From positions 57,908,001 to 57,972,000 of the forward strand of contig NC_058381.1 of NCBI RefSeq assembly GCF_018350175.1: DNA of 64,000 nt. The letters run 5' to 3'. The notes below the pieces were generated by a model. The model was given only the letters and a program-made list of their open reading frames with translations. It was not told where the DNA came from and searched no databases. The translations under genes were made by a program, and so were the position numbers. Positions within the stretch are counted from its first letter, which is position 1. Each line of letters starts with the position of its first letter. The stretch is from Felis catus. Lineage: Eukaryota. Shown here piece after piece: positions 61,741 to 63,610 of the stretch.

Positions 61741-63610
61741 ATGGCCCGGCTGGGCGCGCTGCTCAGCTTCGCGCTGCTGGCGGCCGCCGTGGCCAGCGAC
61801 TACCGGTACGTCCTGGAGGTGGCGGACGCGGGCAACCGCACGGGGCGCGCCGCGCGGCGGTCCTGGCACTCGGGCTCTGGCGCGTCTGCGAAGGTACGGC
61901 GGGGCGGCGGGCCCGGGGCGCAGAGGGCGCGGCCAGGGTGGCGCCCCCGCACGCCCCCACCTCCGTCCCCTCCCAGAACCGGCTGGGTGGTGACAGTCGT
62001 GCTACCAGTGCAGGCGCGGGAAATGAATGTGTTGGGGGGGTGGGGGTGTTGCGGGACCCCTTAAGGACCCAAGAGCCTGGGGAGCAGGAGCCGTGGCCAG
62101 TCCCCTGCCCGCCCTGGTGTGTGTGTCGGGGGTGGGGGCGGGGTGTCTTGTGTTAGGAGCTGCGGCACGTACTTGACAGATGACCGGTCAGCCCCAGGCT
62201 CTCAGTGAGCTCTGCTGCTGGCTGATGCCTGACCTTGTCCTTGCTCGGCCTGCAAGTCGTTGCCGGAGAGGGAGAGAATGATGCTTCTCAGGATGCAAGC
62301 TGGGTGGGGGGCGGCGGCAGGAAGGAGGGGGCAGAGGCAGGGACAGGGGGCACCCAGGGGCCACTCTGCGGTTCCTCCTCACCAAGGGGTATGGGGCCCC
62401 TGGGAAGGCACCCTGGGAGGGTGACCACCAGCCATGTCTTGATTGCTGTCCCCAGGGTTGAGCCTGGCACAGCCCCCCCCCCCCCCGCCCATCTCTCTAC
62501 ACACACACCACTGCCCCCACCTGATCGTCTGACATGCACACGGGCACAAAACAGGAGTGCCACATGCATTTCAGACCCGTATAGATGCTGCCAGGTCCAG
62601 AGAGAGGAAGGCATTCCCCCCCCCCCCGGGGGGCTTCCCCTGCACAGAACCAGCCCTGGGGGTCAGCAGGATCTGTGAGAGGGTGTGAACGTGTGTGCAT
62701 ACGTCAGTGTGAGTGCAGGTGTGTGTGCACGGAAATGTGTGTGGTGAGCATGTGTCCCTGTGTGTATGAATCAACGTGTGAGCATCTCTGTGTGTGTGAC
62801 TGTGTGCGCGTGCATGTGCCTATGTGTTTCCAAACGTGGGCGCGTGTGCACGTGTGTGCAGGAGTCAGACACCCCATGACCTGCACCTTTTCCTGTCCAG
62901 ACAAAGCCACATGTGAGCACGCACACGGCCCCGGGCTTAAAGTTGAGGGCGGCGTGAAACTGTAGACAGGCATCCGTGTAGGTATCGTGTGTATGTTGTA
63001 GAAACAAAACACGAGGCCTGAAACCCTCCAAACCCATTTGGAGCCACGGCTCTGGGGTCCAGGAGAGAATCTGACGGGGCTCCGGGGCCACTGGTCAGCC
63101 CACTGGGTTCTGGCAGGAACCTCGCCGCGTGCCCACAGGGCCACCCATCTCAGAGGAACACAGGGTGGGTGGGGGCCCGGCAGCTGTCCAGGCCACCAGG
63201 TTTCGCGTCCTTTCTGCTTTGCAGGGCAAAACAGCTGCGTCCCCCTGAGCGACCCCTTTGCCGGCGAGAGCCTGGATGCCTCCACCTCGGTGCAGCGCCT
63301 CGTCTGTGAGTCCTGGGCCCGAGTCACGCCCGTCCCTCCCCCAGTCTCCAGGTGAGACTGTCCTGTGAAGGCGGACCTCCAGGCAGACAGGACTCCGAAG
63401 CGCTCACCCGGATCTGACTTGGGGGGGTCGGTCCGCGTCCCCGCCCGCACCCTGAGCCCCTGCTCCTGGCAGCCCTCCACCGAGCTGTCATGGTGGTCTT
63501 GCCCCTGAGCCTCGTCCTTGTCGTGTGCGGCTGGCTCTGCGGCCTCTTCGGTTCCCTGGCACAGAGCGTCCTGCTGCTGCTCCCCGCCGGCTGCTACTTC
63601 TTGCTGGGAG
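61741..63610 (+). pseudogene. TMEM235: TMEM235 (claudin/PMP22 family), first three coding exons 61741-61893, 63225-63305, 63473-63610; frameshifted as assembled, gene continues beyond the window
   Basis: [81 protein letters not shown]. The GLWRVCEG motif is out of frame with the ATG. Position downstream of BIRC5 is syntenic. Confidence 0.8.

What the first reader, a model, noticed from the sequence alone, without database searches (positions are those of the whole stretch)
61741..63610. TMEM235 appears pseudogenised: frameshift plus two further lesions in the first exon
Seen in sequence: CAC TCG GGC TCT GGC lacks one G relative to H-S-G-L-W (61870-61875). This puts the claudin-family GLWxxC motif out of frame and makes the exon 153 nt (phase 0), while the next exon needs phase 1; the spliced product stops at TGA 63246-63248 (58 aa). 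Relative to the recalled human [19 protein letters not shown], 9 codons between the two LGALL repeats are deleted, shortening TM1. The conserved SDYW is SDYR, and a Pro appears in TM3 (LLLPAG). Inference: a second lineage-specific gene loss, so the four intact genes are flanked by two broken ones. A single-base error in a GC-rich G run cannot be excluded, but the other changes argue for relaxed selection.
Basis: partly seen in the sequence, partly recalled or inferred. Interest (0 to 1): 0.72.

Follow-up and report, generated by a model that had tools for sequence, protein, structure and literature searches.

The report
Cat TMEM235, a repeatedly lost gene
In this cat genome the gene for TMEM235, a little-studied claudin-like membrane protein, is broken by two frameshifts, so it is likely a dead gene, and likely one of several independent losses of this gene across mammals.

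Summary
The break is real. Exon 1 lacks one base in the S-G-L-W codons, so the spliced product stops after 58 residues. Contigs from two other runs of this species match the site exactly, and a Prionailurus iriomotensis model carries the identical frameshifted exon. Beyond the window edge, exon 4 lacks 10 bases, a second frameshift seen in the assembly only. No second copy was found in the genome. Decay was stepwise: an unnamed cat-like contig has the 9-codon deletion and W-to-R but an intact frame, and the TM3 proline came later. So the loss is not specific to this species. The same 9-codon deletion recurs in sea lions, ferret, sea otter, mangabey and owl monkey models, while close relatives keep the full form: likely a repeat-driven hotspot. 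TMEM235 loss is already reported for Steller sea lion and listed among marine-mammal losses (PMC6678222); I found no report for cats. The scan's notes held no earlier TMEM235 finding. Verdict: a genuine unitary pseudogene of a known kind, of modest interest.

The parts
61200..61999 (.). CpG island over the promoter and exon 1 (GC 0.62-0.80, CpG observed/expected 0.78-1.0)
61741..61893 (+). TMEM235 coding exon 1 (ATG to GT donor at 61894), 153 nt, phase 0; intact orthologs need phase 1
61750..61764 (+). The single remaining L-G-A-L-L copy; junction of the in-frame 9-codon (27-nt) deletion that shortens the first hydrophobic segment
61804..61806 (+). W-to-R change in the conserved S-D-Y-W motif, shared by all 4 cat-type sequences
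61870..61875 (+). 1-nt deletion (G run of 3 instead of an inferred 4) that puts G-L-W-x-x-C out of frame
   Evidence: shared with P0001 and P0148
63225..63305 (+). Exon 2, 81 nt, AG/GT intact
63246..63248 (+). Premature TGA reached by the frameshifted product (58 aa), 195 nt upstream of the last exon junction
63473..63610 (+). Exon 3, 138 nt, AG/GT intact, encodes TM2-TM3; Pfam Claudin_2 match over the cut-off (E 1.9e-9)
63583..63585 (+). Pro in TM3 (Phe in most orthologs, Ser in the other cat-type sequences P0001, P0149, P0150): a late change
63611..64000 (+). Start of intron 3. The gene continues past the window end: exon 4 (232 nt to the old stop) lies about 2.5 kb beyond it, in locus L002, and carries a 10-nt deletion that shifts the frame before the fourth helix
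   Evidence: the exon-4 lesion is seen in the assembly only

Best explanation
This is the single TMEM235 gene of a small cat, broken by a 1-base deletion in exon 1 and a 10-base deletion in exon 4, and it is likely a fixed, protein-null pseudogene that decayed in steps. Shown: both frameshifts in the assembly; the 58-residue spliced product; the exon-1 lesions in other runs of this species and in Prionailurus. Inferred order by parsimony: first the 27-nt deletion, W-to-R and Phe-to-Ser in TM3 (present in a cat-like contig whose exon-1 frame is intact); then the 1-base deletion, before the split from Prionailurus; then Ser-to-Pro. The date of the exon-4 deletion is unknown. Inferred mechanism: the short deletions arose by slippage between nearby direct repeats or in a G run within a GC-rich exon, and they drifted to fixation once selection on the protein relaxed. 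Any spliced transcript is predicted to be removed by nonsense-mediated decay (50-55 nt rule, recalled). The gene is likely dispensable, perhaps buffered by an intact-looking paralog elsewhere in the genome.
For: Frame breaks and spliced products: (122 of 122 proteins matching the exon-4 pattern have four residues where the window leaves 10 nt too few). Independent DNA: X13 and X17 identical across the exon-1 site; X16, about 1.3% divergent over its 1.1-kb contig, shows no gap over 61703-61875, which spans the 27-nt junction but ends at the frameshift. Fourteen runs hold all 233 sampled words, 11 of them flagged as possible sources. Prionailurus model P0001 is 100% identical over the 51 frameshifted residues and ends in what is intron sequence here instead of exon 4. 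Relaxation: the read-through protein differs at 11-12 of 109-114 conserved columns (10.2%), against a mean of 2.6% for 30 full-length orthologs and 0-5 columns for the 7 intact carnivores. Its branch is 0.166 against 0.058-0.109 for those carnivores. No second copy among 8 matches in the genome: 4 are this gene, 4 are 40-58% paralogs. P0001 was the only named felid model among 82, 120 listed of 141, and 120 hits.
Against: The exon-4 deletion rests on the assembly alone; no second felid sequence of that exon turned up among 300 fetched proteins. Support for exon 1 is from contigs, which drop rare alleles, so fixation is inferred. The order of events depends on one unnamed contig (P0120), linked to P0150 only by equal contig length. 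Two orthologs taken as intact (deer, dugong) reach 9 changed columns, close to the window's count, and I picked the 30 orthologs by hand. All splice sites and the CpG island are intact, so transcription may persist. No dN/dS test was possible without ortholog DNA.
Confidence: 0.92

Rival explanations
1. Assembly or sequencing error in a GC-rich G run; the gene is intact.
For: The exon is about 79% GC. The exon-4 lesion has no support from reads or contigs.
Against: Identical contigs in X13 and X17; the same frameshifted peptide in Prionailurus P0001 and in the unnamed ENA sequence P0148. Two separate errors would be needed.
Confidence: 0.01
2. The protein is dead but the locus still works as RNA, for example a non-coding transcript that tunes the neighbouring BIRC5 through miR-34a-3p, as proposed for 'Lnc Tmem235' in marrow stromal cells.
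For: All three introns keep GT-AG and the CpG island persists. PMC9723185 reports such an RNA (passages seen). BIRC5 lies 6.6 kb upstream.
Against: The three RNA or possibly-RNA runs laid give contigs that run through introns with no splice joint, so there is no evidence of a transcript. Splice sites decay slowly, so their survival is expected. Whether that RNA overlaps these exons was not checked.
Confidence: 0.05
3. A shortened or re-spliced protein is still made and used, starting at the exon-3 ATG (63490) or using an upstream acceptor at 63200 or 63164 that restores the frame.
For: These frames are open: 104, 196 and 208 aa.
Against: Every such product lacks the G-L-W-x-x-C loop motif and meets the exon-4 frameshift, so it lacks the fourth helix. 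TM3 has gained a proline since the split from Prionailurus. No GT donor between 61800 and 62047 restores the frame.
Confidence: 0.02

Closest known systems
TMEM235 loss in the Steller sea lion and among marine-mammal gene losses (PMC6678222, citing Chikina et al. 2016)
   Same: [quoted passage not shown] The sea lion models even carry the same 9-codon deletion (P0017, P0020).
   Different: Here the lineage is a terrestrial cat with its own frameshifts, so the loss is not tied to marine life. The Chikina paper itself was not available to read.
Felid unitary pseudogenes such as UGT1A6 (PMC3065456, search listing only) and TAS1R2 (recalled)
   Same: Single-copy gene at its ancestral locus, inactivated by small lesions shared across cats.
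   Different: Those losses have a known physiological consequence tied to diet. TMEM235 has no established function, and it was not found in the text-held supplements of the carnivore gene-loss screen.
TMEM114/TMEM235 branch of the PMP22/claudin superfamily, close to the CACNG subunits (PMC6987440 and PMC11202810, passages seen)
   Same: Claudin_2 domain, S-D-Y-W and G-L-W-x-x-C motifs, four coding exons.
   Different: The cat copy cannot encode the loop motif or the fourth helix in one frame.
Fixed TMEM235 loss-of-function variant in an island macaque (bioRxiv 10.1101/2025.09.06.674399, passage seen)
   Same: A natural fixed knockout of the same gene.
   Different: That paper calls it putatively ultra-deleterious; the many lineage losses seen here suggest the gene is in fact dispensable.

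Membership tests
TMEM235 ortholog | Best protein matches are TMEM235 | tested here: met
   Exon 3 query: the named hits among 82 are TMEM235 models or unnamed-product models of it, best 91-93% identity in carnivores
TMEM235 ortholog | Synteny: directly downstream of BIRC5, same strand | tested here: met
   Four BIRC5 exons at 46939-55131, BIR domain E 3.7e-12; the fused BIRC5-TMEM235 model P0063 shows the same order in a rodent
PMP22/claudin superfamily (PF13903) | Claudin_2 profile match over the curated cut-off | tested here: met
   Exon 3 scores 38 bits against a cut-off of 29.1; the intact mustelid ortholog scores 169
PMP22/claudin superfamily (PF13903) | G-L-W-x-x-C motif and four hydrophobic helices in one reading frame | tested here: not met
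   Two frameshifts; no tested splice form holds them all
Unitary pseudogene | Inactivating lesions in the coding sequence | tested here: met
   1-nt deletion in exon 1 and 10-nt deletion in exon 4
Unitary pseudogene | Lesion supported by independent data | tested here: met
   Met for exon 1; exon 4 rests on the assembly alone
Unitary pseudogene | No intact copy elsewhere in the genome | tested here: met
   28 of 28 candidates scored; only 40-58% paralogs outside this locus
Unitary pseudogene | Relaxed selection on the remaining coding sequence | tested here: inconclusive
   About four times the mean change at conserved columns and a longer branch, but protein-level only, no dN/dS, and two other mammals come close
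Unitary pseudogene | No protein product in vivo | not testable with these tools
   No proteomics or ribosome profiling available
Programmed frameshift gene | Same frame break conserved in distant relatives, with the rest of the gene under constraint | tested here: not met
   126 of 128 full-N-terminus proteins keep the motif in frame; a second, unrelated break lies in exon 4

The most novel reading that the evidence does not exclude
TMEM235 carries a built-in deletion hotspot: the same 9-codon loss between two L-G-A-L-L repeats has arisen independently in at least six named mammal lineages (cats, sea lions, ferret, sea otter, sooty mangabey, owl monkey) and in unnamed bear-like, musteloid-like and whale-like sequences. 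It often marks a first step in a repeated route to losing this orphan claudin/CACNG-like brain protein. Cats show the full series (deletion, then frameshift, then further decay) and the ferret shows step one, giving a graded set of natural knockouts with which to find the protein's function.
Probability: 0.5. Interest if true: 0.5.

Novelty: new member of a known kind. Interest (0 to 1): 0.33.

Why it matters
It adds cats to the mammals that have lost TMEM235 and shows that the loss, so far mentioned for marine mammals, also occurs on land. Repeated loss suggests that TMEM235 knockouts are tolerated, which bears on how loss-of-function variants in this gene are read in conservation and human genetics. 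It also means the cat is no model for the protein. The recurring 27-base deletion is a clean example of the same mutation striking a coding repeat in many lineages. No trait is yet linked to the loss, which caps the interest.

Tried and rejected
Expression: X16, X17 and X19 contigs cover introns as well as exons and show no splice joints; this shows neither expression nor silence. Exon-4 support in other cats: a search with the intact mustelid protein gave 314 hits, 150 listed, none a cat-type exon 4. 'LOW QUALITY PROTEIN' labels as evidence of loss: rejected for otter, badger, ermine, mink and horse, whose models are intact through the fourth helix and differ only by a human-like C-terminal frame. 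The 9-codon deletion as proof of pseudogenisation: rejected alone, since ferret P0160 keeps a full frame. Programmed frameshifting: rejected (see membership test). Literature: TMEM235 absent from text-held supplements of PMC6386725, PMC6760925 (control gene MAP3K19 found), PMC8233500 and PMC5090899. Chikina 2016, Meyer 2018 and Maher 2011 were not held. Earlier scan notes: none mention TMEM235, none near or in look-alike windows. Pfam scan of an open frame downstream on the minus strand gave no family. Exon coordinates were off by one or two bases and were corrected; one search ended in a script error and was rerun. No structure was predicted, as it would not change the verdict.

Full report
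Identity. The window lies on a 61.9-Mb contig of a 2.43-Gb genome. The stretch holds coding exons 1-3 of TMEM235: exon 3 matches Pfam Claudin_2 over the cut-off, its best named matches are carnivore TMEM235 models at 91-93% identity, and BIRC5 lies upstream at 46939-55131. The nearest named sequence is Prionailurus iriomotensis, identical over exon 1 and the aligned part of exon 2 and three residues apart in exon 3. The animal is therefore a small cat, most likely the domestic cat; that is inference.

The observation. Exon 1 (61741-61893) is 153 nt and ends in phase 0. Joined to exon 2 (63225-63305) it stops at TGA 63246 after 58 residues; skipping exons gives 53-62 residues, and no GT donor from 61800 to 62047 restores the frame. 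The missing base is likely a G: three database models that happen to translate this site out of frame are compatible with S-G-L-W only if the run has four G, and the window has three. The 9-codon deletion, W-to-R and the TM3 proline are confirmed against orthologs.

Not an error. Of 24 runs listed, 14 hold all sampled words of 61500-63700, 11 of them flagged as possible sources. I laid 4 of the 24. X13 gives one contig of depth 41 over the whole stretch with no difference; the tool notes it may be the source. X17, from another study, spans the frameshift with no difference. X16, a more divergent cat-like sequence, has no gap over 61703-61875. X19 does not cover exon 1. These are contigs, so rare alleles would be hidden. 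The strongest argument is cross-species: the Prionailurus model P0001 has the same frameshifted 51 residues.

A second frameshift. Exon 4 lies beyond the window (66481-66712 if the window's coordinates are continued into L002). Alignments switch frame near 66564-66568. All 122 proteins that match the exon-4 pattern have four residues at a place where the window is 10 nt short. This removes the fourth helix from any product that starts or re-enters frame downstream. It rests on the assembly alone. Indirect support: the Prionailurus model ends in sequence that is intronic here rather than in exon 4.

Order of decay. An unnamed contig (P0120) encodes a cat-type exon 1 with the 9-codon deletion and W-to-R but in-frame G-L-W-R-V-C-E-G. 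Other cat-type exon-3 sequences (P0001, P0149, P0150) have Ser where most mammals have Phe and the window has Pro. Parsimony gives: deletion, W-to-R and Phe-to-Ser first; the 1-base deletion next, before the split from Prionailurus; Ser-to-Pro last. This hangs on one unnamed sequence; a third search with it found no second example. Read through with X at the breaks, the cat protein differs at 11-12 of 109-114 conserved columns, against a mean of 2.6% in 30 hand-picked full-length orthologs; the highest of those reach 9 (deer, dugong). Its branch is 1.5 to 2.9 times those of seven intact carnivores. That fits relaxation over part, not all, of the cat lineage. No second copy was found; the best other locus is a paralog whose four exons look open, which I take to be TMEM114 from recalled features.

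The wider pattern. Among 151 exon-1-bearing proteins of 300 fetched, 15 have the short N-terminus by pattern: cats (4), sea lions (2), ferret and ferret-like (3), sea otter, sooty mangabey (2 isoforms), owl monkey and bear-like (2). Two more were seen by eye (P0266 musteloid-like, P0189 whale-like). Close relatives keep the full form: other Mustela, Lutra and Lontra, the elephant seal, and baboon-group monkeys. That implies at least six independent events among named species, most simply slippage between the two L-G-A-L-L repeats 27 nt apart. I saw proteins only, so assembly or annotation artefacts remain possible for single-source cases. Other lesions appear in the hyena (shifted exon 4, no exon 1), elephant seal, sea lions, bear-like contigs (their own frameshift at the same S-H-S-G site), dolphin and capuchin models. 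Canids, most mustelids, ungulates, rodents, bats and afrotheres have full-length models.

What is known. PMC6678222 lists TMEM235 among 25 genes missing or severely altered in the Steller sea lion, drawn from a top-100 list of marine-mammal losses (passage seen); I could not read the source list. A macaque preprint reports a fixed loss-of-function variant (passage seen). PMC6987440 describes TMEM235 as cortex-enriched, co-expressed with the myelin genes MAG and OPALIN, and closer to CACNG subunits than to claudins (passages seen); PMC10775140 reports oocyte staining (passages seen). I found no report of loss in cats in the listings (40 of 66 papers listed), or in the four supplement sets searched. 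Subscription papers, bioRxiv supplements and genome-wide loss tables were out of reach and may well list it.

Verdict. The loss itself is an ordinary kind of event (interest 0.33). The recurring deletion is the more unusual thread and is testable with existing reads.

Noticed in passing
window 7100-7429: C17orf99 Ig-domain exon matches PF17736 with an open frame, but its translation shows only one cysteine, whereas Ig domains normally have two (established knowledge).
   Followed up: partly
proteins P0091, P0027, P0112 (human) against P0032, P0152: Human and other catarrhine TMEM235 end in a different C-terminal frame from most mammals. This probably explains 'LOW QUALITY PROTEIN' labels on intact otter, badger, ermine, mink and horse models.
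   Followed up: partly
protein P0160 (ferret), P0124, P0121: The ferret model has the same 9-codon deletion in an otherwise intact frame, while Mustela nigripes, M. lutreola and M. erminea have the full form: a recent event and a natural test of the deletion's effect.
   Followed up: partly
proteins P0127, P0151: Unnamed bear-like contigs carry the 9-codon deletion and an independent frameshift of the opposite sign at the same S-H-S-G site.
   Followed up: no
protein P0022 (Crocuta): The hyena model lacks exon 1 and shifts frame in exon 4 at the same G-P-R site as the cat, but by a different lesion, so the losses look independent or follow a shared earlier relaxation.
   Followed up: no
L004:783 to L005 (G000:C41, about 34058783-34070430): Closest paralog, TMEM114-like by recalled features, with four exons that look open; a candidate for redundancy.
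   Followed up: partly
L002:5498-5935, minus strand: An open frame resembling the last exon of threonine aldolase THA1 (name recalled; no Pfam match), converging on the TMEM235 3' end.
   Followed up: no
proteins P0082, P0080, P0090: Manatee, dugong and white-tailed deer models are full length but carry 8-9 changes at conserved columns, which may be early relaxation.
   Followed up: no
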